DNA of 64,000 bases. Origin: Terriglobia bacterium (GTDB lineage Bacteria; Acidobacteriota; Terriglobia; 20CM-2-55-15). The first letter of the stretch is position 1. Every line of letters starts with the position of its first letter. This document shows positions 3,620 to 15,808 of the stretch, piece after piece. A program made the position numbers and the translations under genes. The notes beneath the pieces were generated by a model. The model saw only the letters and a program-made list of their open reading frames with translations, did not search any database and had not been told where the DNA came from. Location of the stretch: positions 192,001 through 256,000 of the forward strand of contig CAXWPJ010000012.1 of NCBI GenBank assembly GCA_963664115.2, in the 5' to 3' direction.

Positions 3620-3678
3620 ATGGACTCGCCTACCTTTCCTCTCCTGTGTTTCCCCGCTCCATATTATCTGGCAAAAGG

Positions 3679-3753
3679 GGGTCAGAGCCCTATTTACCCA
3701 ATTAATAACCGGAATAAATGTAGATCATAATTGGGGATATAGGGCTCTGACCC
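3679..3753. repeat. REP-like long inverted repeat (15-bp perfect arms plus inner CCCAATTA/TAATTGGG) downstream of ilvA
   Basis: GGGTCAGAGCCCTAT (3679-3693) and ATAGGGCTCTGACCC (3739-3753) are exact reverse complements; the interior is AT-rich. Confidence 0.8.
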
Positions 3754-3755
3754 TA

Positions 3756-5030
3756 TTAAACCAGGTGGCGGAGCAGGTCGGGGTTGTCGTTCAGATACTC
3801 TCCGAAGAAGCCACGGTCTTTCATTCGTCGGATCAAGGGTTCCAGGTCTTCCTTGTTTCTCAACTCGACGCCGACTACCGCCGGGCCTCTCTCCCGATCC
3901 GTCTTCTTCGAGTAGGCGAAGTGCGTGATGTCGTCGCCCGGCCCCAGGACATCAACAACGAACTGACGCAGCGCTCCGGAACGCTGCGGAAAACGCACGA
4001 TGAAATAGTGCTTCACGCCCTCGTATATCAGCGCACGCTCCCGAATCTCTTCGATTCTCCGAAAGTCGTTATTGCCGCCACTGATGAGACAGGCCACGGT
4101 CTTTCCTTTTATGCGATCCCTAAAATCTTCAAGTGCGGCAACAGCCAAAGCTCCGGCGGGCTCGACGATGATTCCGTTTTCGTTATATAGCCTCAGTATA
4201 GTGGCGCATAACCGCCCTTCAGGAACGGTTACAACGTCGTCGAGAACCTCTCTGCAGATCTGGAAGCTCAACTCCCCCACCCGCTGAACGGCCGCTCCAT
4301 CGGTGAAAACGTCGATCGTTTTGAGCCGGACCGGATGACCCGCGCGAAACGCCTCGACCATTGAGGGCGCGCCTTCGGGCTGAACGCCGATGATCTGAGT
4401 ATTTGGAGACTTCGCTTTAACCCAACTTCCTACGCCGGCGGCCAATCCACCGCCGCCCACGGGTAAAAACATGATGTCGATCGCGTCACCGGCGGCTTCA
4501 AGCATCTCGATCCCCACCGTTCCCTGGCCTTCGATGACGACAGGATCGTCAAAGGGGTGCACGTAGATGGAACCGTCGGCCTCCGTCCGGCGAACAGCTT
4601 CCCGTTCAGCATCGTCAAAGACGTCACCAACCATCTCGATGTCGACTCCCGGTCCGCCAAGCGCACGCACACGTTCAGTCTTCTGACTGGGTGTAGTCAG
4701 CGGCATATATATTGTTGCGTGAATTCCCAGTTTCCTGGCGACGTAAGCGACGCCCTGGGCATGGTTACCCGCACTTGCGCATGAAACGCCTTTGAGAAGT
4801 TCCTCGTCCGAACAACTGCGGATCTTGTTGTAGGCGCCTCTAATTTTGTAGGAACGGACCAGCTGCAGATCTTCTCGCTTGAGCAGGATGTTGGCTTCGT
4901 AATCTTCGGAGAGGTTCCGGTCGCGTTCCATGGGAGTACGGACAACGACGTTTTTCACGCGCTTCGCAGCCCTCCCAATGGCGTCCGGTTTCGGACGCCA
5001 TGTCAGATCGGGAGGTTCTTGATGTTTCAC
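3756..5030 (-). CDS. ilvA: Threonine ammonia-lyase, biosynthetic (short form)
   Basis: KREDLQ.VRSYKIRGA PLP lysine, SAGNHAQG, VGGGGL, single C-terminal ACT-like domain. Confidence 0.95.
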   Translation of the reverse strand: MKHQEPPDLTWRPKPDAIGRAAKRVKNVVVRTPMERDRNLSEDYEANILLKREDLQLVRSYKIRGAYNKIRSCSDEELLKGVSCASAGNHAQGVAYVARKLGIHATIYMPLTTPSQKTERVRALGGPGVDIEMVGDVFDDAEREAVRRTEADGSIYVHPFDDPVVIEGQGTVGIEMLEAAGDAIDIMFLPVGGGGLAAGVGSWVKAKSPNTQIIGVQPEGAPSMVEAFRAGHPVRLKTIDVFTDGAAVQRVGELSFQICREVLDDVVTVPEGRLCATILRLYNENGIIVEPAGALAVAALEDFRDRIKGKTVACLISGGNNDFRRIEEIRERALIYEGVKHYFIVRFPQRSGALRQFVVDVLGPGDDITHFAYSKKTDRERGPAVVGVELRNKEDLEPLIRRMKDRGFFGEYLNDNPDLLRHLV

Positions 5031-6136
5031 TTGGTTGCGTGCGCTTCCTTCGCGGCGGCCGCTCCCGTAGTTTCCTTCACCGGACGGTCCGTCTTGGATT
5101 CGGCCCGCAACTGCCGGACCTGCTTCCCGGTACGCCAGATCTCTTCACTCCCCAACGCGTCCAACTCCGCTTCGAGCCGCTCCCGATAATCGTCCTTGCT
5201 GCACGTTTCGATGACAATTCGGGCTTCCTCGCCCGAGCGCACGCTCTCGTAAAGCTCCTCATACACCGGTGTCACGGCTTCACGAAACTTATGACGCCAG
5301 TCCAAGGCTCCGCGTTGGGCTGTCGTCGAACAATTGGCATACATCCAGTCCATTCCGTTTTCGGCCACAAGCGGCATCAAACTTTGAGTCAATTCTTCAA
5401 CGGTCTCGTTGAAGGCTTCTGAAGGAGAGTGGCCGTTCTTTCGGAGTACGTTAAACTGCGCCTCGAACACTCCAGCAATCGCGCCCATCAATACGCCGCG
5501 CTCTCCGGTCAAATCCGAATAGACTTCCTTGCGGAAATCGGTCTCGAAGAGGTAGCCGGAACCGACGCCGATGCCGAGAGATATGACGCGCTCCATCGCA
5601 CGCCCGGTTGCATCCTGGAAAACGGCGTAGCTGGAGTTCAGCCCCTTCCCGGCGACAAACAGCCGACGCAACGATGTCCCCGAACCTTTAGGGGCGATCA
5701 GAACCACATCGATGTCATCGGGAGGAATGACATGGGTCTGATCCTTGAACGTCACCGCAAATCCGTGGGAAAAATAAAGACACTTGCCCGCGGTAAGATG
5801 CGGATTCACCTTGTCCCATTGGGCAATCTGGCCGGCATCGGAGAGGAGATACTGGATAATCGTTCCGCGCGCGGCCGCTTCTTCGATCTCAAAAAGGCTC
5901 TCGCCTTCGACCCACCCGTCCTGAACGGCTTTGTCCCACGTACGCGAGGCTTTCCTCTGCCCCACGATAACGTTGAATCCATTGTCCTTCAGATTGAGCG
6001 CCTGTCCGGGTCCCTGGACCCCGTACCCCAGGACCGCAATGGTTTCATCCTTCAAACTTTCGCGAGACTTGTCCAAAGACCACTCTTCTCGTGTGGTCAC
6101 GTTCTCCTCAACGTCACCGAATCGTATCTTTGCCAT
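5027..6136 (-). CDS. ilvC: Ketol-acid reductoisomerase (Bacteroidota/fungal Ilv5-like form)
   Basis: GYGVQG, FSHGF, APKGSG, SDLTGERGVLMG, NCSTTAQRGALDW. Confidence 0.95.
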   Translation of the reverse strand: MAKIRFGDVEENVTTREEWSLDKSRESLKDETIAVLGYGVQGPGQALNLKDNGFNVIVGQRKASRTWDKAVQDGWVEGESLFEIEEAAARGTIIQYLLSDAGQIAQWDKVNPHLTAGKCLYFSHGFAVTFKDQTHVIPPDDIDVVLIAPKGSGTSLRRLFVAGKGLNSSYAVFQDATGRAMERVISLGIGVGSGYLFETDFRKEVYSDLTGERGVLMGAIAGVFEAQFNVLRKNGHSPSEAFNETVEELTQSLMPLVAENGMDWMYANCSTTAQRGALDWRHKFREAVTPVYEELYESVRSGEEARIVIETCSKDDYRERLEAELDALGSEEIWRTGKQVRQLRAESKTDRPVKETTGAAAAKEAHATK

Positions 6137-6142
6137 ACTGCT

Positions 6143-6670
6143 TTAACCTCCGTTTTTCGCGTCTGCTGACGCATCGATTTGGGCAAGTGAGGGCTTCGTG
6201 ACGGTTATGCTTCCTGACCTCACGAATTCCATTACCCCGAAAGGCTCCAAACTGCCGGACAACTCTTCGATCTCGTCCTGTGATCCGGTCTTTTCCACAA
6301 CGACATAGCCCGAACCCGCTATGAGGATCCGCGCACGGCTCGTCCGTACAATTTTTCCAAGAGAATTTCCAACTGCCCCCGCGTCCAGGGACAGCTTGAA
6401 CAGGGCCACCTGCCGTGCATGGGTTTCAACGTCGCGGTGGAAGCTCACCTCGAGCACACCGACAGCCGCGCCGATCTGCTTGACGGCCCGGCGAACCCGG
6501 TCCGGGATTGATCGAACGACGACAGTATGCTGGTACAACTTGGATGCATCACCGTTCGTACAGGTGAAGCTTTCAATCTTCACGCGATGACGCCCCAGGC
6601 ACGCCACTAAACGCAACAGAGAAGCCGAGTCGTTCTCCGTGAGCACCGAAACTGTAAATTGCGGGTCCAC
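6143..6670 (-). CDS. ilvN: Acetolactate synthase small (regulatory) subunit, divergent
   Basis: ACT fold SVLTEN..., C-terminal EKTG...LEPFGVMEFVRSG; lies between ilvB and ilvC. Confidence 0.85.
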   Translation of the reverse strand: MDPQFTVSVLTENDSASLLRLVACLGRHRVKIESFTCTNGDASKLYQHTVVVRSIPDRVRRAVKQIGAAVGVLEVSFHRDVETHARQVALFKLSLDAGAVGNSLGKIVRTSRARILIAGSGYVVVEKTGSQDEIEELSGSLEPFGVMEFVRSGSITVTKPSLAQIDASADAKNGG

Positions 6671-6689
6671 TGGTTTCCTCTAAAAAAGC

Positions 6690-8471
6690 TTATTCCAGTC
6701 GGATTTCAGAACAGGCGGCACCGGAAGGGACCATCGGGAACACGTTGTCCTCCCGTTCCACCGCCACTTCCAGCAGAAAAGACGACTCCGACCCCAGCAT
6801 CGCATCAATCGCCTCACCGAGTTGTTCTCTTTGACTCACCCGCTTCCCTTCCATACCGTATGCCGCTGCAACGGCCACGAAGTCCGGATTCATCAATTCG
6901 GTCGCTGAGTAACGGCGCGAAAAGAACAACTGTTGCCATTGACGCACCATTCCCAGGTACTCGTTGTTCAGGATCATCATCTTGACGGGAATCTTCGCCT
7001 GGAAGATCGTCCCCAACTCCTGGAGCGTCATCTGGAACCCACCGTCACCAATAATGGCAACAATCAGACGGTCCTGCCGTGCAACAGCTGCGCCAATCGC
7101 TGCCGGCAGGGCAAACCCCATCGTCCCGAGGCCACCGGAGGTTATGGTTCCGCTGCCTTCATCGAACTTGTAATAGCGGGCTGCAGCCATCTGGTGTTGT
7201 CCTACGTCGGTGACGATAATGGCTTTTCCTTCGCTGCGCTCGGACAACTGATGGATGACTTCCGCCATCCGAAGTCCGGGAGAGTCGGGATGAATGTCTT
7301 TTTGAATGACCCGGTCGAGTTCGATTGCGTCGCACTCCCGAAACTCGGCAAGCCACTCCTCGTGAGAGGCCGGTCCGACCGCTTCGGCGAGTGCCCGAAG
7401 AGCGTCCTTGGCATCGGCAACGATCGCAACATCGGTCTTGACGTTCTTGTCGATCTCGGACCGGTCGATATCGATATGGATGACCTTTGCCTGGGTCGCA
7501 TACTTGGAAAGGTCACCGGTCACGCGATCATCAAACCGCATTCCGACTGCGATCAAGAGATCGCACTCGTTGGTCTTGACGTTCGGCCCGTAGTTTCCAT
7601 GCATGCCCAACATGCCGGTATGTAACCGATGACGGCTGGGCAACGCCGACAGTCCCAGAAGTGTGCACGCGAACGGGAGCCCTGCCTTTTCGACCAAGGC
7701 CTTCAATTCGGCCTGTGCCCCGGAAAGCAGGACGCCCTGTCCCACCAGAACAAACGGTCTTCGTGACTGGTCGATCAACCGGGCCCCGGCCCGAACACTT
7801 GCAGGTTCCAATGTGGGCCGCGGCCGGTAACCCCGGACATCATCGACCCTCACCGGACGGTAGTCGAGGGTACCGATCTGAGCATCCTTTGTGATATCGA
7901 CCAACACGGGTCCGGGTCGTCCCGACCGTGCGATATAGAGGGCCTTGGCAATCACTTCGGGGATCTCTTCAGGCCGCGTGATCTGGTAGTTCCACTTTGT
8001 CAGCGGCGCGCTCACCGATATGATGTCCGTCTCCTGAAACGCGTCCGAACCGAGCATCTTTGAGGGTACTTGACCGGTGATACAGACCACAGCGGTGCTG
8101 TCCATCTTCGCGTCTGCAATTCCGGTGATCAGGTTCGTCGCTCCGGGGCCGGATGTGGCAATACATACGCCCGGTCGTCCCGAGGCGCGCGCATAGCCCT
8201 GGGCGGCATGGATCGATCCCTGTTCGTGACGGACAAGAATGTGTCGAATCTGATGGTCGTACTCGAAAAGGGCATCGTATACGGGCATGATCGCGCCACC
8301 CGGGTATCCGAAAACCGTACGGACACCCTCCTGCAACAACGACAGCACGACCGCTTCCGATCCCGACACTGTCTGTGGCGGTTGGACGATAGCTTCCGGC
8401 GCTATCGTTCCAGCATTGTTCGCGCTTCGGGCTTCCTCTTCCCTGTTTAAAGTTGTCTTGCTTTGCGACAT
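6690..8471 (-). CDS. ilvB: Acetolactate synthase large subunit
   Basis: FGYPGGAIMP, RHEQG, TSGPGATN, GMHG, GDGGFQM ThDP motif, NNxYLGMVRQWQ. Confidence 0.97.
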   Translation of the reverse strand: MSQSKTTLNREEEARSANNAGTIAPEAIVQPPQTVSGSEAVVLSLLQEGVRTVFGYPGGAIMPVYDALFEYDHQIRHILVRHEQGSIHAAQGYARASGRPGVCIATSGPGATNLITGIADAKMDSTAVVCITGQVPSKMLGSDAFQETDIISVSAPLTKWNYQITRPEEIPEVIAKALYIARSGRPGPVLVDITKDAQIGTLDYRPVRVDDVRGYRPRPTLEPASVRAGARLIDQSRRPFVLVGQGVLLSGAQAELKALVEKAGLPFACTLLGLSALPSRHRLHTGMLGMHGNYGPNVKTNECDLLIAVGMRFDDRVTGDLSKYATQAKVIHIDIDRSEIDKNVKTDVAIVADAKDALRALAEAVGPASHEEWLAEFRECDAIELDRVIQKDIHPDSPGLRMAEVIHQLSERSEGKAIIVTDVGQHQMAAARYYKFDEGSGTITSGGLGTMGFALPAAIGAAVARQDRLIVAIIGDGGFQMTLQELGTIFQAKIPVKMMILNNEYLGMVRQWQQLFFSRRYSATELMNPDFVAVAAAYGMEGKRVSQREQLGEAIDAMLGSESSFLLEVAVEREDNVFPMVPSGAACSEIRLE

Positions 8472-8472
8472 C

Positions 8473-10188
8473 TCACGCTCCGTCTGTCGTACAGCCTTCT
8501 GACGCGGGTGATACGGACCGGGCGTATTTGTAGAGGGCGCCCGAGCTTACACGTAAGGGCGGCGCGGACCACCCGGCCCGGCGCGCGTCTATCTCATCGG
8601 AATCCACGTCCAGATCGATCGTGTTCTGGACGGCATCGATCCGTATGCGATCGCCATCCTTACAGAACGCAATGAGTCCGCCATCCTGAGCTTCCGGAGT
8701 GATATGGCCCACGACAAATCCGTGTGTTCCACCGGAAAAACGGCCATCCGTAATCAACGCGACGTCCTTACCCAGGCCGGCCCCCATGATCATCGAGCTC
8801 GGGGTCAGCATCTCCGGCATCCCGGGTCCGCCTCGGGGCCCCTCATAGCGAATCACTACAACGTCGCCTGCTTTGACGTCCCCGGCGGCAATACTCGCGT
8901 TCGCTTTCTCCTCGCTGTCAAATACCCTGGCCGGGCCTTCGAAAGTCTCACCTTCCTTGCCGGTGATTTTTGCTACCGCACCCTTGCTGGCAAGGTTTCC
9001 GTAAAGAATCCTCAAATGGCCCCGCGCGCTGATCGGATCGTCCGGGTTGCGGACGATATTCTGGCCACTCTGGAGGGGAGGTAAATCGGCCACGTTCTCC
9101 CCAAGCGTTGCCCCGGTAACGGTCATGCAGTCACCATGCAGCAGTCCCCGTTCCAAAAGCATCTTGATGACGGCCGGCGTTCCACCGATGGCATGGAGGT
9201 CTTCCATCAAATAGGGGCCACTCGGCCGGAAATCCGCCAGGAGCGGTACCCTGCTGCTGATTTCCTGAAAATCATCGACCGTGAGATCGACCTGTAGCGT
9301 TCTGGCAATGGCCAAAAGATGGAGGACAGCGTTAGTCGATCCACCCAGAACAATCGTCAGCGTAATGGCATTCTCAAAGGACTTGCGCGTCAAAATATCC
9401 CGCGGCCGCAAGTTAGTTTCCAAAAGCGATCGGAGTGCCGGCCCCGCGCTGTGGCACTCTCTAACCTTCTCTTTGCTCTCGGCGGGATTGGAAGAACTGT
9501 AGGGCAGGCTCATCCCCATGACCTCGATCGCACAGGCCATCGTATTGGCCGTAAACATCCCCCCGCAGGCACCCGCGCCGGGACAGCTCTGACGGACGAC
9601 TTTCTGAAACCTTTCCAAAGAAATCTTCCCGGCAATGTGCTGGCCCAGTGCCTCAAAAGATGAAATCACATCCAGCTTGTCTCCGTTGAGATGTCCGGGA
9701 GCAATGGTCCCTCCATAAATCATGAGCGCAGGACGGTTGAGACGTGCCATCGCGATCATCGCTCCCGGCATGTTCTTGTCACAGCCCATGATCGTTATCA
9801 GGCCATCATAGTGCTGGGCTGAAGCGATCGTCTCGATGGAGTCCGCGATCAAGTCTCTCGACGGCAACGAATACCGCATTCCGAAGGTCCCCATCGAAAT
9901 ACCATCGCTGACACCGATGGTATTGGAAACAAAGCCCACCAGATCAGATGACCGCACGCCCGCTTTGACCTCCCCGGCCAGGCTGTTCAAGTGCATGTTG
10001 CAGGGATTACCTTCATATCCCGTGCTGATGATCCCGACCTGAGCCAGGTTGAGGTCCGATTCCGACAAACCGGCCCCGAACAACATCGCCCGGGCCGCAG
10101 GACGGTCATAGGCCTGGGTCACATGCTTGCTGATCCGGTTCAGCTCTTTCGAATCCTTGGTCTCTTTTGTTTCCGTGTTTTCCTTCAT
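8473..10188 (-). CDS. ilvD: Dihydroxy-acid dehydratase
   Basis: [44 protein letters not shown]. Confidence 0.97.
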
Positions 10189-10235: not shown

Positions 10236-11312
10236 CTAACTTGCTTTCGATGCCGCGAGCGATCCCACAATAAACTCACCCATTTCGGAGGTCGAAACCG
10301 CCCGCCCATCTCCGTCGGAGAGAAGATCGGCCGTTCGCTTACCCTCGGCGAGGGCACGGTCCACACCCGCACGGATGGCGGTGGCTTCGGCGGAAAGCTT
10401 GAACGTCAGTTCAAGCATCATGGCGACCGAAAGAATGGCTCCAATCGGGTTGGCGATCCCTTTTCCAGCGATGTCGGGTGCCGTACCGTGCACGGGTTCA
10501 TACAAACCGATCGTTGCTCCGATGCTGGCAGACGGCAACATGCCCAGGCTCCCGGCCAGAACCGAAGCTTCGTCGCTCAAAATATCTCCGAACATGTTGT
10601 TCGTCAGGATGACGTCGAACTGGCGCGGATTGGCAATCAGTTGCATCGCGCAGTTGTCGACCAGCATGCTGTTGAATTCGACGTCGGCATATTCGCGCGC
10701 AACGTCGGTCGCGACGCGGCGCCACAGAACGGACGACTCCAGGACATTCGATTTATCAATCGAGACCACCTTCTTGCGGCGTTCCCGCGCGATCTCGAAC
10801 GCCGTCTTGGCAATCCGGCGAACCTCTTCTTCGGTGTACACCTCGGTGTTGTGTGCGATCCCGTGATCCAGACCTCGCGGCAGTCCGAAATAAATGCCAC
10901 CCAACAACTCGCGCACAACCACAAGATCCACACCGCGGATGTGTTCCGGTCGAAACGGAGATTGATCCAGGATCGCGTCGGACACCGCAACGGGACGAAT
11001 GTTGGCGTAGTTTCCGAGGAGCTTGCGAAGCTCCAGCAGGCCTTTCGCGGGATCAGGAACGGTGGGATCGGCCGGCTGCGCGGCGAATCCGACGGCTCCG
11101 AGGAGAACGGCATCGACCTGGGTTACCAGTGCGCGTGTTGGCTCCGGCAGCGACTCGCCCGTGCTTTCTATAGCCCCAGCTCCCATCGCGCCTTCGATAA
11201 ATTCAAATCGGTGCCCGTAAGCCTCTCCGATTGCTTCCAGCACACGCCGTGCTTCATCAAGAACCTCCGGTCCGACGCCGTCTCCGGGCAGAAATGCGAT
11301 GCGCCCTTCCAT
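10236..11312 (-). CDS. leuB: 3-isopropylmalate dehydrogenase
   Basis: PGDGVGPE, VRELLGGIYFG, NMFGDILSDEAS, EPVHGTAPDIAGKGIANP. Start moved to ATG 11312. Confidence 0.96.
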   Translation of the reverse strand: MEGRIAFLPGDGVGPEVLDEARRVLEAIGEAYGHRFEFIEGAMGAGAIESTGESLPEPTRALVTQVDAVLLGAVGFAAQPADPTVPDPAKGLLELRKLLGNYANIRPVAVSDAILDQSPFRPEHIRGVDLVVVRELLGGIYFGLPRGLDHGIAHNTEVYTEEEVRRIAKTAFEIARERRKKVVSIDKSNVLESSVLWRRVATDVAREYADVEFNSMLVDNCAMQLIANPRQFDVILTNNMFGDILSDEASVLAGSLGMLPSASIGATIGLYEPVHGTAPDIAGKGIANPIGAILSVAMMLELTFKLSAEATAIRAGVDRALAEGKRTADLLSDGDGRAVSTSEMGEFIVGSLAASKAS

Positions 11313-11317
11313 ATTTC

Positions 11318-12850
11318 CTATTCTCCCGCCGCCTTGTTGTGGCTGCTCATCGCTGTCCACAAGGCCTTGTTAATCGCATCCAGGTAAGCCCGCGTGGCCG
11401 CGATGTTCAAATCGGTACTGGCCGCACGGCCGGATATCGTCTTACCTTCGACTTCAACCTGCATGAAAACCTCCCCGACGGCTTCGCTGCCTCCGGTGAC
11501 GGATTTCGCCGAAAATCCCAGCAGCTTTGCTTTACAACCGGTGATCTGATTGACCACGCGAACGGTGGCATCGACGGGGCCGTCTCCGGTTGCGGAATCG
11601 GTGTACATGACACCCTCCTTCTCGAGACTCAATGTCACCGTCGATACGGCGTCAGACTGGCCGACGACATGGAAATGCTTCAGGGCAAACGCCGTCGGCA
11701 CGTTGGTCAGTCCATCGTTGATGATGACCATCAAATCCTCGTCGTAGATGGTCTTCTTCCGGTCAGCCAACTTCGTAAACAGCATGTAGGCCCGTGCCAG
11801 ATCCGCTTCACTGAGCTGGTACCCCATCTCGCGGTAGCGCGCAGCCAGCCCGTGGCGTCCGGAGTGTTTCCCGAGCACGATCTGGTTCTGTGGGACACCC
11901 ACAGACTCCGGTGTCATGATTTCGTAGGTCAGGGTTTCTTTCAGCACACCGTCCTGATGAATACCCGCCTCGTGCGCAAAGGCGTTTTTGCCGACGATGG
12001 CCTTGTTCGCCTGGACCTCCATTCCAGTCAAACTCGACAGGACCTGACTCGTTCTGTAGATCTCCTGTGTGTTGATCCCGGTTTCCAGATCGAGCAAACT
12101 CTTATGGACCTCGATGGCCATGACGATTTCCTCGAGTGAGGCGTTGCCGGCACGCTCCCCGATCCCGTTGATTGCACACTCGACCTGCCGGGCGCCGTTC
12201 TGCACTCCCGCAAGGGAGTTGGCCACGGCCACACCCAGATCGTTGTGACAGTGGGTGCTGATGGTGACGTTCTCGATGCCCTTAACGTTTCGCAGACCGT
12301 GGATCAACTCTCCGTACTCTGAGGGCAGGCAATAGCCCACTGTGTCGGGAATGTTGACGACCGATGCACCGGCCTCGATAGCCGCTTCAATCACGGCATA
12401 GAGGTACTCCGGATCGGAGCGGCCTGCATCTTCGGCGGAAAACTCGACGTCGTCACACAATGAACGTGCCAGTTCGACGGACTGCACCACCATTTCCAGA
12501 GCCTCTTCCCGTGTCTTGAGCAGCTTGTATTTTAAATGGATGTCGCTCGTGGCTAGAAAAGTGTGGATCCGCGGTCGGGCAGCACCTTCAAGCGCCTCCC
12601 AACAGCGACGGATGTCGCCCGACGACGCCCGGGCAAGGCCCGCGATGGAGGTTTCCCTCACTTCAGCAGCAATACGCTTGACGGCCTCAAAATCTCCATC
12701 CGATGCAATTGGGAAACCCGCCTCGACGACGTCCACCTGCAATCGCTCCAGTTGACGCGCCAGCCGGAGCTTGTCCTCAATGTTCATGCTGAAACCGGGA
12801 GCCTGCTCCCCGTCTCTCAGCGTCGTGTCGAAAATCGCAATCCGATTCAT
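11318..12850 (-). CDS. leuA: 2-isopropylmalate synthase
   Basis: [33 protein letters not shown]-terminal GDGPVDA regulatory domain. AAGGA SD fits ATG 12850. Confidence 0.96.
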
Positions 12851-12862
12851 GGCCATTCCTTA

Positions 12863-12985: not shown

Positions 12986-13621
12986 TTAACTCCTGAGTTC
13001 CCGTAACTCCTCGGTTCCAAGAACACCGTGGATAAATAAATTCTGAAACTCACTCACGACTTCGGCCGGTTTGACCGATCCTGAAGGTTTGTACCACTGG
13101 TAAGTCCAGTTCAACATCCCAAGCAAGGCCAGCGCGGCCACCTTGGGATCCGCAGCTTTGCAATTCGATTTTTGCATCACCTCACTGACGAGTTCGGTGA
13201 CGAGCCGGACGTATTGCTTCTTCCGGCGGTTGATCTTGGCCTGATGCGGCCTCGAAAGACCCTGGCATTCGTGCAAGAGCCCGGTTACCGCCAGCTTTCG
13301 CCCCTCCAGAATCAGCTTCAGGTGCAATTCGATCATCTTCTTCAGGCGGCGCACCGGGTCCGCTATAGCTTCCAACGGATCGACCACGTATGCCTCGGTC
13401 ATGTCCATTCCGTAGTCGAGGATGGTAAAGAGCAGGCTTTCCTTGCTGGGGATGTGGTGATACAAACCGGCCTTGGTCAGACCGACAGCCTCGGCGATAT
13501 CATTCATCGAAGTGTTGTCGTAACCCTTTCGGTGAAAAACTTCCGCCGCGATCTCGTATACTTTGTCCCGTGGTGCGGTTGATTTCTGCTTCAGTTTTGA
13601 AGTTCCGTTTCGATTTGCCAT
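12986..13621 (-). CDS. TetR/AcrR family regulator, PaaR/KstR2-like C-terminal domain
   Basis: HTH KGYDNTSMNDIAEAVGLTKAGLYHH.PSKE; C-terminal LLGMLNWTYQWYKPSG typical of PaaR/KstR2-type TetRs. Confidence 0.9.
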   Translation of the reverse strand: MANRNGTSKLKQKSTAPRDKVYEIAAEVFHRKGYDNTSMNDIAEAVGLTKAGLYHHIPSKESLLFTILDYGMDMTEAYVVDPLEAIADPVRRLKKMIELHLKLILEGRKLAVTGLLHECQGLSRPHQAKINRRKKQYVRLVTELVSEVMQKSNCKAADPKVAALALLGMLNWTYQWYKPSGSVKPAEVVSEFQNLFIHGVLGTEELRELRS

Positions 13622-13622
13622 A

Positions 13623-13644
13623 ACCTACCGACCGATCGGTAGGT
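13623..13644. promoter_or_regulatory. Palindromic TetR operator ACCTACCGA-N4-TCGGTAGGT
   Basis: Perfect 9-bp inverted repeat starting 1 nt upstream of the tetR ATG; contains the ACCGA-N4-TCGGT core known for PaaR operators. Confidence 0.85.
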
Positions 13645-13674
13645 ATAATATCAGGATGCCACTCGAAAGTGCAA
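13645..13674 (-). promoter_or_regulatory. Sigma70 promoter for tetR-leu-ilv (TTGCAC-18 nt-TATTAT with TGn extension)
   Basis: The minus strand reads TTGCAC (13674-13669)...TGA TATTAT (13653-13645); the predicted +1 falls inside the operator. Confidence 0.6.
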
Positions 13675-13688
13675 TATAATTCACTGAC
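13675..13688 (+). promoter_or_regulatory. -10 box TATAAT 8 nt before the leuC ATG (leaderless-type promoter)
   Basis: TATAAT-TCACTGAC-ATG, no SD. Confidence 0.6.
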
Positions 13689-15107
13689 ATGACGCGCCCG
13701 AAAGCTAAGACGCTATACGACAAAATATGGGATAACCACGTTGTTGTGGAAGGCGACCGAACGCCCACAATCCTTTATATCGATCTACATTTGATCCATG
13801 AAGTTACTTCTCCTCAAGCATTTACAGGAATTCGCGATCGAGGACTCAAAGTCCGCCGACCGGATCGGACGCTGGCGACCGCAGACCACGTCACTCCGAC
13901 CATCAGCAAGAATATCGCCGATGCGGGCGAGCTGGCCGTTCAACAACTCCGGAGCCTGGAGCAGAGTTGTGCGGACTTCGGAGTGCGCCTCTACACCATC
14001 GGCGACAGCCGGCGCGGCATCGTCCACGTTATCGGTCCAGAGCTGGGGCTGACCCAACCCGGCCTGACGCTGGTTTGCGGCGACAGCCACACCTCGACGC
14101 ACGGCGCCTTTGGAACCCTGGCCTTTGGCATCGGGACCACCGAAGTCGAACATGTGCTCGCGTCTCAATGCCTGCTCGAAAGCAAGGTCGGCAACTTCGA
14201 GGTGGAATTTCAGGGCCAGCTTCAACCCGGCGTCAGCAGCAAGGACATGATCCTCGGGTTGATCTCAAAAATCGGCATCGGAGGCGGCACGGGTCACGTC
14301 ATTGAGTACACGGGTTCGGCGATTCGGAGTCTCGGGATGGAAGCCCGGATGACGATTTGCAACATGTCGATCGAGGGTGGTGCGCGCGCCGGACTCGTCG
14401 CGCCCGATGACACGACATTCGAGTACATGTCCGGGCGAGAGTTTGCGCCCAAGGCAGAGGATTGGGACCGCGCCATCGGAAAATGGCGACAGTTACCCAG
14501 TGATCCGGAAGCGTTCTACGACAAGGCTGTGACGATTGATGCATCGACGCTGGAGCCGATGATCAGCTTCGGTACGAACCCATCTATGTGTGCACCCATC
14601 CGGGAAGAGATACCGAGCCCTGGGGACTTGGATAACCCCGTAGAACGGGATCAACTTGAAGCGGCACTGAGGTACATGGACCTAGTGGCCGGAGAACCGT
14701 TGATCGGGCAGAAGGTGGATGTAGTCTTCATCGGAAGCTGCACGAACTCAAGAATCTCCGACATGCGGGAAGCCGCGAGGATTCTCAAAGGCCGAAAGGT
14801 GAGCGAAGGTGTCCGCGCACTGATCGTTCCCGGATCGGAACAGGTCCGCACCCAGGCCGAGAGCGAAGGGTTGGACCGCATATTCGAAGAAGCCGGCGCC
14901 CAGTGGCGTCAGCCCGGATGCAGCATGTGCCTGGCAATGAACGGGGATCAGCTGCGGCCGGGGGAACGCTCGGTGAGCACAAGCAATCGAAACTTTGAGG
15001 GGCGGCAGGGACAGGGCGGTCGGACCATGCTGGGTTCTCCGCTGACCGCAGCAGCGTCGGCCGTAGCCGGCAAGGTCGCGGACCCGAGAGAGTTCCTGTC
15101 CGATTAG
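13689..15107 (+). CDS. leuC: 3-isopropylmalate dehydratase large subunit
   Basis: [52 protein letters not shown]. Confidence 0.98.
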
Positions 15108-15129: not shown

Positions 15130-15705
15130 ATGAAGAAATTCGAAAAATTCGTTTCGCACGCAGCGTGTCTTCCTCTGAAGGACATCGACACCGACCAAAT
15201 CATTCCCGCTCGATACCTGAGAACCACGAACAAGGAGGGTCTGGGAGATCACCTGTTTCATGACTGGCGATATGACGGCCAAGGTCAGCCACGAGAGGGT
15301 TTCCTACTGAACAATCCCGACGCAAACGACGCACGGCTGCTGATCACCGGCATGAACTTCGGCTGCGGAAGCTCCAGAGAGCACGCGGTCTGGGCCCTCA
15401 TGGACCATGGGATCTACGCCTTGATCGCGCCCGGATTCGCAGACATCTTTCACAAGAATTCCCTAAGGAACGGGCTGCTGCCGATCACAGTGGATGCGCA
15501 GACCCACGAATCCTGCCTGAAGGCTGCGGCAAGTGGTACCAACTTCACTGTGGACCTGCGGAGCAACACGGTCACTGCCGATTCCCTTACCTTCAGCTTT
15601 GAAATCGACCCCTTCGCGCGCAACTGCCTGTTACAGGGCATCGACGACCTGGAGTTCATCCTGCAGCATGAGGACGACATAGCGGCGTTTGAAGCCAGAA
15701 ACTAG
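15130..15705 (+). CDS. leuD: 3-isopropylmalate dehydratase small subunit
   Basis: DIDTDQIIPARYL, NFGCGSSREHA, FADIF..N..NGLLP. Confidence 0.97.
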   Translation: MKKFEKFVSHAACLPLKDIDTDQIIPARYLRTTNKEGLGDHLFHDWRYDGQGQPREGFLLNNPDANDARLLITGMNFGCGSSREHAVWALMDHGIYALIAPGFADIFHKNSLRNGLLPITVDAQTHESCLKAAASGTNFTVDLRSNTVTADSLTFSFEIDPFARNCLLQGIDDLEFILQHEDDIAAFEARN

Positions 15706-15715
15706 GCGGGGATTT

Positions 15716-15808
15716 TTAACACGAAGGGCACGAAGGAAAATCAATTTCTAAAGAAATTCATTTCTTTTCTTCGTTAACTTGGTTTTCCTTCGTGCCCTTC
15801 GTGTTGAA
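15716..15808. repeat. Long inverted repeat of CACGAAG units between convergent leuD and proA (probably also a bidirectional terminator)
   Basis: AACACGAAGGGCACGAAGGAAAA (15718-15740) and TTTTCCTTCGTGCCCTTCGTGTT (15783-15805) are perfect 23-bp arms around an AT-rich loop. Confidence 0.85.

What the first reader, a model, noticed from the sequence alone, without database searches (positions are those of the whole stretch)
12986..13688. PaaR/KstR2-type TetR and PaaR-like operator positioned to control branched-chain amino-acid biosynthesis
Seen: tetR is the first gene of the co-directional run tetR-leuA-leuB-ilvD-ilvB-ilvN-ilvC-ilvA(-pheA) and is divergent from leuCD. The 67-bp spacer holds a perfect palindrome ACCTACCGA-ccga-TCGGTAGGT covering the predicted leftward +1, plus back-to-back -10 boxes. 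Known: the PaaR operator consensus as I recall it (ACTNACCGNNCGNNCGGTNAGT, core ACCGA-N4-TCGGT) matches at all but two defined positions, and PaaR/KstR2 sense acyl-CoA thioesters in catabolic pathways. ilv-leu genes are normally controlled by attenuators, T-boxes, Lrp, CodY or IclR-type LtbR. Inference: an acyl-CoA-sensing repressor may have been co-opted to tie BCAA synthesis to (branched) acyl-CoA pools, which I do not recognise as a described regulon.
Basis: partly seen in the sequence, partly recalled or inferred. Interest (0 to 1): 0.72.

Follow-up and report, generated by a model that had tools for sequence, protein, structure and literature searches.

The report
AibR-type repressor of leucine/valine/isoleucine synthesis
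A close relative of the myxobacterial isovaleryl-CoA sensor AibR has its DNA binding site in front of the leucine, valine and isoleucine synthesis genes of many Acidobacteria, which likely means that these bacteria switch the pathway off when the branched fatty-acid starter made from leucine builds up, a feedback route I found no description of.

Summary
In detail: gene order, 67-bp spacer and palindrome (13623-13644) are as described. The family label needs correcting. The nearest solved protein by sequence and by fold is AibR of Myxococcus xanthus, not PaaR or KstR2, and the palindrome is two AibR-type 18-bp operators offset by 4 bp. AibR binds DNA only with isovaleryl-CoA bound, which suits a biosynthetic operon. 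The regulon is not just self-control: all 24 related tetR-leu loci carry the operator; in 33 of 33 related genomes where tetR lies elsewhere, it sits before leuA, ilvB or ilvC; before leuA/ilvB of 22 relatives lacking the regulator it was not found. Other Acidobacteriota place the same regulator and site on AIB-like operons, the second route to isovaleryl-CoA, and leu-linked copies occur at two places in the tree. Ligand and direction of control are inferred: three pocket residues and AibR's apo-locking network differ, and unrelated TetR genes use the same motif. Co-transcription of tetR-leuA was not shown. Verdict: real, undescribed in my searches, a new variant of a known regulator.

The parts
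12986..13621 (-). AibR-type TetR-family regulator (211 aa; TetR_N + TetR_C_24), the only TetR_C_24 gene found in the genome
13623..13644 (.). 22-bp operator palindrome = two AibR-type 18-mers offset by 4 bp (13627-13644, 1 mismatch; 13623-13640, 2 mismatches)
   Evidence: conserved in relatives
13645..13674 (-). predicted leftward promoter: -35 TTGCAC 13674-13669, 18 bp, extended -10 TG-n-TATTAT 13653-13645; operator covers the predicted start
   Evidence: read by eye; not called by the scan; same layout in relatives
13644..13649 (+). predicted -10 box (TATAAT) of the leuCD promoter; the operator covers its spacer/-35 side; no good -35
   Evidence: sequence; inference
11318..12856 (-). leuA, 2-isopropylmalate synthase; 129 bp behind tetR, no terminator called on this strand
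10236..11312 (-). leuB, 3-isopropylmalate dehydrogenase
8473..10188 (-). ilvD, dihydroxy-acid dehydratase
6690..8471 (-). ilvB, acetolactate synthase large subunit
6143..6670 (-). ilvN, acetolactate synthase small subunit
5027..6136 (-). ilvC, ketol-acid reductoisomerase
3756..5030 (-). ilvA, threonine dehydratase (named from the translation); likely last gene of the operon, an inverted repeat 3668-3764 follows
13689..15107 (+). leuC, isopropylmalate dehydratase large subunit
15130..15705 (+). leuD, small subunit; inverted repeat 15723-15800 follows

Best explanation
The TetR is an AibR-type regulator whose operator lies over the divergent promoters of tetR-leuAB-ilvDBNCA and leuCD, and it likely represses both when a branched short-chain acyl-CoA, most likely isovaleryl-CoA, is bound. 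Shown: gene layout, operator, its tight association with leu/ilv genes only in genomes that carry this regulator, its position on sigma-70-type promoters, kinship with AibR. Inferred: leucine or its keto acid is turned into isovaleryl-CoA by a branched-chain 2-oxo-acid dehydrogenase; the CoA ester binds the dimer and turns on DNA binding as in AibR; when it falls, the operon opens. The 22-bp form may hold two dimers 4 bp apart (inferred). The regulator would thus keep up the supply of the iso-fatty-acid starter by whichever de novo route the genome has wired to it: AIB in myxobacteria and some Acidobacteriota, leu/ilv here.
For: Nearest PDB sequence AibR, E 1.2e-37, ungapped over 20-189; top four fold matches AibR, rmsd 1.5-1.8 A, 37-38% identity (model pLDDT 82.6). 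AibR binds ACCTACCG-2N-CGGTAGGT only with isovaleryl-CoA (PMC5389471). 7 of AibR's 8 DNA-contact residues, His114/Tyr171 of the switch and 4 of 5 CoA-contacting side chains are kept (numbering). 24 of 24 tetR-leu loci among 80 have the site within 2 mismatches just upstream of tetR; leuCD stays behind the same site whether divergent (7 loci) or downstream. 33 of 33 genomes with tetR elsewhere have a site within 3 mismatches before leuA, ilvB or ilvC (25 at 2 or fewer; 8 more by gene-first search; background 1 of 3000 windows). 22 genomes without the regulator: 14 leuA and 18 ilvB upstream regions, best 5 or more mismatches. TTGAC lies upstream in the direction of the target at 46 of 63 sites, 3 of 63 the other way. 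In a phylum sample 11 of 29 copies head AIB-like genes and 7 go with leu/ilv; two leuA-linked copies nest among AIB-linked ones (support 96). The genome has an E1a-E1b-E2 cluster whose best solved match is PDB 1um9, with human branched-chain E1 next for the alpha chain, and a FabH-type domain.
Against: No binding or expression was measured. Pocket residues Phe72 and Leu168 and the pantothenate contact Lys172 are Thr, Asn and Gln here; the apo-locking pairs Arg24/Lys107/Glu108 and Arg16/Glu74 are not kept in this protein, so co-repressor behaviour need not carry over. The motif is not a mark of AibR: 45 of 80 perfect metagenome copies precede a tetR gene, many of them distant, and only 1 of 80 precedes leuA; PfmR binds nearly the same word (PMC7022988). 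The regulon covers ilvB/ilvC, so the signal may be any branched acyl-CoA. The E1 cluster passed no branched-chain-specific model. The 33 unlinked genomes are one clade, not independent cases, and are 32 of 54 such loci chosen for contig length plus two relatives.
Confidence: 0.65

Rival explanations
1. Same regulon, classical TetR logic: the empty protein represses and a pathway substrate or CoA ester (acetyl-CoA, a 2-oxo acid, an isopropylmalate) releases it.
For: Most TetRs and PaaR work so (PMC4424350; PMC5389471 introduction). PfmR binds a near-identical word without added ligand (PMC7022988). AibR's apo-locking contacts are lost here.
Against: AibR is much nearer than PfmR or KstR2; His114/Tyr171 kept; release by a downstream acyl-CoA would switch on synthesis when product is plentiful; the same regulator alternates between AIB and leu operons, whose shared product is isovaleryl-CoA. 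In some genomes a LysR gene or LysR-type box shares the same promoter region and could supply substrate induction separately.
Confidence: 0.18
2. Same regulon and co-repression, but the pocket has changed to read a non-CoA signal such as leucine or 2-oxoisocaproate.
For: Phe72 is Thr or Leu in the large leu-linked clade, Leu168 is Asn, Lys172 is Gln, and Lys175 varies in the unlinked clade.
Against: Trp169 and Lys131 are invariant and Lys132 is mostly Lys/Arg in the acidobacterial set; Asn168 and mostly Gln172 are also found in AIB-linked acidobacterial copies, and two leuA-linked copies keep Phe72.
Confidence: 0.11
3. The site only autoregulates tetR (or is bound by another TetR), and leu/ilv genes here run from promoters of their own.
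For: 129 bp separate tetR and leuA; no listed RNA contig bridges the two genes; the motif is a common self-site of many TetRs.
Against: Sites before leuA/ilvB/ilvC in 33 of 33 genomes where tetR is elsewhere, most with no site at tetR itself; none in 22 genomes without the regulator; the tetR-leuA gap is only 10-15 nt in L025 and L028; no terminator called on the minus strand.
Confidence: 0.06

Closest known systems
AibR of Myxococcus xanthus (PDB 5K7F/5K7H/5K7Z; PMC5389471)
   Same: Nearest solved sequence and fold; same 18-bp operator; same DNA-reading residues; first gene of the operon it controls; tied to de novo supply of isovaleryl-CoA.
   Different: Targets are leu/ilv genes, not the AIB operon; no close aibA or HMG-CoA synthase found in this genome; pocket changes F72T, L168N, K172Q; apo network not kept; operator is a 22-bp double site serving two divergent promoters.
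PfmR (TTHB023) of Thermus thermophilus (PDB 3VPR; PMC7022988)
   Same: Same structural subfamily (E 2.6e-26); its reported site TACCGACCGNTNGGTN matches the window site once in the genome.
   Different: About 30% identity; targets are fatty-acid and phenylacetate-related genes; binds DNA without added ligand.
PaaR (Corynebacterium, Streptomyces, Thermus) and KstR2 (Mycobacterium)
   Same: CoA-ester-binding TetRs; KstR2 binds its CoA ester as AibR does (PMC5389471); PaaR-like core with N4 spacer matches (review table in PMC10933834).
   Different: KstR2 is distant (E 2e-13, 23% identity); both control catabolic genes; PaaR is released by ligand (KstR2 likewise, recalled). No PaaR sequence was compared.
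LiuQ (TetR) and LiuR (MerR) of Proteobacteria (PMC5343134)
   Same: Transcription factors of branched-chain amino acid metabolism.
   Different: Their core is degradation, not synthesis; no sequence kinship tested.
NdgR/LtbR (IclR), LysR-type regulators and attenuators of ilv-leu genes
   Same: Control the same genes; NdgR regulates leucine synthesis in Streptomyces (PMC4340878, search listing only). Relatives lacking this TetR show a divergent LysR-like gene at leuA or a leader peptide before ilvB.
   Different: Other protein families or RNA mechanisms; they read amino acids, charged tRNA or pathway intermediates (recalled), not an acyl-CoA.

Membership tests
AibR-type regulator | Nearest characterised relative by sequence and fold | tested here: met
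AibR-type regulator | Operator ACCTACCG-2N-CGGTAGGT upstream of its own gene | tested here: met
   1 and 2 mismatches here; perfect in L024, L026, L059; 14 of 14 aib-linked myxobacterial loci carry it
AibR-type regulator | DNA-contact residues R14, S35, M36, T46, K47, Y51, H53, K57 | tested here: met
   7 of 8 identical; R14 not at the aligned position
AibR-type regulator | CoA-binding side chains K131, K132, W169, K172, K175 and switch H114/Y171 | tested here: met
   6 of 7 identical; K172 is Gln
AibR-type regulator | Isovaleryl pocket F72, L100, V101, V109, I112, L113, Y134, L168 | tested here: inconclusive
   4 identical, 2 conservative, 2 changed (F72T, L168N); N168 also in AIB-linked acidobacterial copies
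AibR-type regulator | Apo-locking network R24/K107/E108 and R16/E74 | tested here: not met
   all five differ in the window protein; four are mostly kept in the unlinked clade
AibR-type regulator | Heads the AIB operon (aibA-aibB-aibC-mvaS) | tested here: not met
   heads leu/ilv; no aibA or HMG-CoA synthase match in the genome
AibR-type regulator | Binds DNA only with isovaleryl-CoA bound | not testable with these tools
   needs EMSA
PaaR | Core ACCGA-N4-TCGGT operator | tested here: met
PaaR | Operators before phenylacetate catabolic genes | tested here: not met
   none of the fetched sites in relatives lay before genes named as paa; targets are leu/ilv
PaaR | Sequence kinship with a characterised PaaR | not tested
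   no entry named PaaR among the 60 PDB matches shown of 121
KstR2 | TetR_C_24 ligand domain | tested here: met
KstR2 | Close kinship and steroid-ring catabolic targets | tested here: not met
   23% identity, E 2e-13; neighbours and targets are leu/ilv

The most novel reading that the evidence does not exclude
Many Acidobacteria control branched-chain amino acid synthesis not by an amino acid or charged tRNA but by isovaleryl-CoA, the starter of their iso-branched membrane lipids, through AibR-type co-repressors that have been rewired at least twice between the two routes to that molecule (AIB and ilv-leu).
Probability: 0.55. Interest if true: 0.8.

Novelty: new variant of a known kind. Interest (0 to 1): 0.68.

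Why it matters
It would add a feedback principle for ilv-leu genes: control by a downstream acyl-CoA through a TetR co-repressor, tying amino acid synthesis to branched lipid demand in an abundant, barely studied phylum whose cultured members in several subdivisions make iso-diabolic acid from iso-C15:0 (PMC13159169; not shown for this lineage). It extends AibR from one myxobacterial operon to a regulon family with swapped targets, and it gives a clean test: one protein, one 18-22 bp site, four candidate ligands. A branched acyl-CoA-dependent repressor would also be a usable biosensor part.

Tried and rejected
RNA evidence: four metatranscriptome runs kept as contigs covered pieces of leu/ilv genes, but no listed piece bridged tetR-leuA (32 pieces shown, 153 not shown); no conclusion on co-transcription, strand or start. 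Promoter scan found neither predicted promoter. Further own-genome targets: 9 other PaaR-core hits, 9 three-mismatch AibR hits and 1 further motif hit were checked; 12 of 19 lie inside ORFs and none showed a clear tie to this pathway. Strict mutual exclusion of AIB and leu was rejected: 7 of 12 acidobacterial and 2 of 10 myxobacterial genomes tested have leuC; no site within 1.5 kb of those leuC genes, but the region upstream of leuA was not covered. aibA: no match of 45% or more in 40 leu-regulon genomes, only 32-35% CoA-transferase-like genes in 9 without nearby site; since one true AIB-like operon also scores only 34%, this is not proof of absence. G040 was first counted as lacking the regulator and was moved to the positives after a profile search; its leuA has no site, its ilvC has one. 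The 96-row tree did not finish its careful search and the 55-row tree is a quick one: no root, no order of events claimed; 4 rows were dropped from the first as duplicates or partial, and the second used 55 chosen rows. Some sites lay before unrelated genes (rlpA, moaC, tgt, an acyl-CoA ligase, an E1 gene, a TolC with another tetR); 35 of 60 fetched loci were leu/ilv. Literature: searches found no description of this regulon; three primary papers on PfmR and PaaR were not held; supplements were not read; RegPrecise itself could not be searched. Earlier scan findings: none bearing.

Full report
Observation. The layout is as reported: tetR (13621-12986, minus) leads leuA, leuB, ilvD, ilvB, ilvN, ilvC, ilvA and pheA; leuC-leuD run the other way from 13689 (family support). 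Gaps from leuA to ilvA are 47 bp or less; a 37-nt inverted repeat lies between ilvA and pheA, so pheA may be separate. The palindrome spans 13623-13644 and ends one base before the tetR start codon. Palindromes of this shape are common in the genome (78 positions), so its standing rests on identity and conservation, not on symmetry.

The protein. It has TetR_N and TetR_C_24 and is the only TetR_C_24 gene found in the genome. No NCBIfam model is passed. Its nearest solved sequence is 5K7F (E 1.2e-37), ahead of Tfu_2799, PfmR and KstR2; an AlphaFold model matches AibR structures first. I read the AibR paper's abstract, introduction, results and discussion (PMC5389471, parts 1, 3, 4, 5 of 7): AibR binds isovaleryl-CoA (Kd about 1 uM) and dimethylacrylyl-CoA, binds ACCTACCG-2N-CGGTAGGT only when loaded, and so shuts off de novo isovaleryl-CoA synthesis. 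The window site is two such 18-mers offset by 4 bp, with 1 and 2 mismatches, and is the only place in the genome that close. The AibR crystal also showed DNA in two registers 4 bp apart, which the authors treated as alternative positions; two dimers on the 22-bp form is my inference. Residue mapping: DNA contacts 7 of 8 kept; His114, Tyr171, Lys131, Lys132, Trp169, Lys175 kept; Lys172 is Gln; pocket 4 identical, 2 conservative, Phe72 to Thr and Leu168 to Asn; the apo-locking network is not kept.

Synteny. 20 of 41 genomes (own included) matched the protein; in 15 relatives tetR precedes leuA with the site upstream. A genome-collection scan kept the best 80 of 343 loci, nearly all titled Acidobacteriota or Terriglobia. 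24 of 80 are linked to leu genes and all 24 carry the site within 2 mismatches; of the other 56, only L077 and L081 have it at tetR within 2. The exact 22-mer occurs in 12 of 24; others have a single 18-mer. leuCD is divergent in 7 loci and downstream in most of the rest, always behind the same site.

The regulon test. Genomes whose tetR is not beside leu/ilv are the natural experiment. I searched 33 distinct such genomes (32 of 54 loci plus two relatives, one duplicate removed). Fetched sites lay 40-400 bp before ilvB, leuA or ilvC in 25 of the 29 genomes examined that way; a gene-first search gave the remaining 8 a site within 3 mismatches, against 1 of 3000 random 450-bp windows. Leu-linked relatives have a second copy before a separate ilvN-ilvC-ilvB operon. 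In 22 relatives with no close regulator by profile search, the 450 bp before 14 leuA and 18 ilvB genes gave 5 or more mismatches at best; several of these genes are operon-internal, but the whole loci had no site within 3, and the genome-wide 2-mismatch hits examined from five of them lay inside ORFs. These genomes show other controls: a divergent LysR-like gene at leuA or a leader peptide with terminator before ilvB (read by eye). The site sits on promoters: TTGAC precedes it in the direction of the target at 46 of 63 sites (3 of 63 reversed; background 3%), placing it just after -10 at ilvB, between -35 and -10 at leuA and over -10/+1 at tetR. All are repressor positions. The unlinked genomes form one clade, so these counts show conservation, not independent trials.

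The signal. In 81 genomes of a myxobacterial order, 15 matched; 14 have the site upstream and aibA-like or HMG-CoA synthase genes downstream. In 300 Acidobacteriota genomes, 28 carry the regulator (29 loci): 7 go with leu/ilv, 11 head HMG-CoA synthase or aibA-like genes, 1 a polyketide synthase, 10 form a more distant group with a changed switch. Six mapped operons read tetR, HMG-CoA synthase, thiolase, CoA-transferase-like genes, and in five scanned a zinc dehydrogenase, that is an AIB-like set. Leu-linked copies appear in two parts of the tree, two of them nested among AIB-linked copies. The product common to AIB and leucine synthesis is isovaleryl-CoA, which is the main argument for the ligand; Asn168 and Gln172 also occur in AIB-linked copies, so they do not by themselves mean a new ligand. 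This genome has no detected AIB genes, has a candidate branched-chain dehydrogenase and a FabH-type gene. Leucine feeds iso-C15:0 through 3-methylbutyryl-CoA, and iso-diabolic acid is reported for subdivisions 1, 3, 4 and 6 (passages of PMC13159169); lipids of this lineage are unknown to me.

Against. The motif is shared widely: of 80 perfect metagenome copies, 45 precede a tetR gene (16 by similarity to this protein, 29 more by Pfam) and 1 precedes leuA; PfmR reads nearly the same word (passages of PMC7022988). So the site alone says nothing on ligand or direction. The pocket and apo-network changes leave room for a wider or different ligand or for classical induction. RNA data were uninformative.

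Novelty. Full-text searches for AibR with isovaleryl (4 papers, none on leu/ilv by title or abstract), Acidobacteria with leucine biosynthesis, TetR and regulon (0), TetR with leuA, ilvB and isovaleryl-CoA (2, listings only, one on IclR-type NdgR) and three further searches found no such regulon; subscription journals and RegPrecise are not covered. LiuR and LiuQ have degradative cores (passages of PMC5343134). Verdict: a real, conserved leu/ilv regulon of an AibR-type TetR (about 0.93), most likely co-repressed by a branched acyl-CoA (about 0.65); a new variant of a known kind.

Noticed in passing
L307-L311, L315 (G197, G432, G164, G213, G363, G418): Acidobacteriota carry AIB-like operons built on an archaeal-type HMG-CoA synthase with thiolase and a DUF35-type OB protein, CoA-transferase-like genes and a zinc dehydrogenase, under an AibR-type regulator.
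   Followed up: partly
L206, L208-L213; L138, L139, L362-L364, L369: A LysR-like gene divergent from leuA with a shared AT-rich box in relatives lacking the TetR; in some TetR-positive genomes the same kind of box or a LysR gene sits beside the operator, suggesting dual control.
   Followed up: no
L214-L217, L219, L221: Short Ile/Val/Leu-rich leader peptides with hairpin and T-run before ilvB in relatives lacking the TetR (read by eye).
   Followed up: no
window 3756-10188: The window's ilvB is 70% identical to ilvB of four attenuator-bearing relatives but 41-50% to the others tested: the ilvD-B-N-C-A block may have been acquired or moved behind leuB, coming under the operator.
   Followed up: no
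L044-L101 (most): In the unlinked clade tetR usually precedes pheA and has no site of its own; pheA also ends the window's run and follows leuB in L059 and L073, where an indolepyruvate-oxidoreductase-like gene comes next.
   Followed up: no
L272-L281 (G355, G433, G337, G346, G381 and others): A distant subgroup with changed switch residues has 4-7 site matches per genome in five genomes and sits before electron-transfer-flavoprotein or acyl-CoA ligase genes: a separate regulon.
   Followed up: partly
window 3668-3764 and 15723-15800: Long imperfect inverted repeats between ilvA and pheA and between the convergent leuD and proA genes, likely terminators.
   Followed up: no
L103, L105, L106: A variant site recurs near an rlpA gene in three genomes of the unlinked clade.
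   Followed up: no
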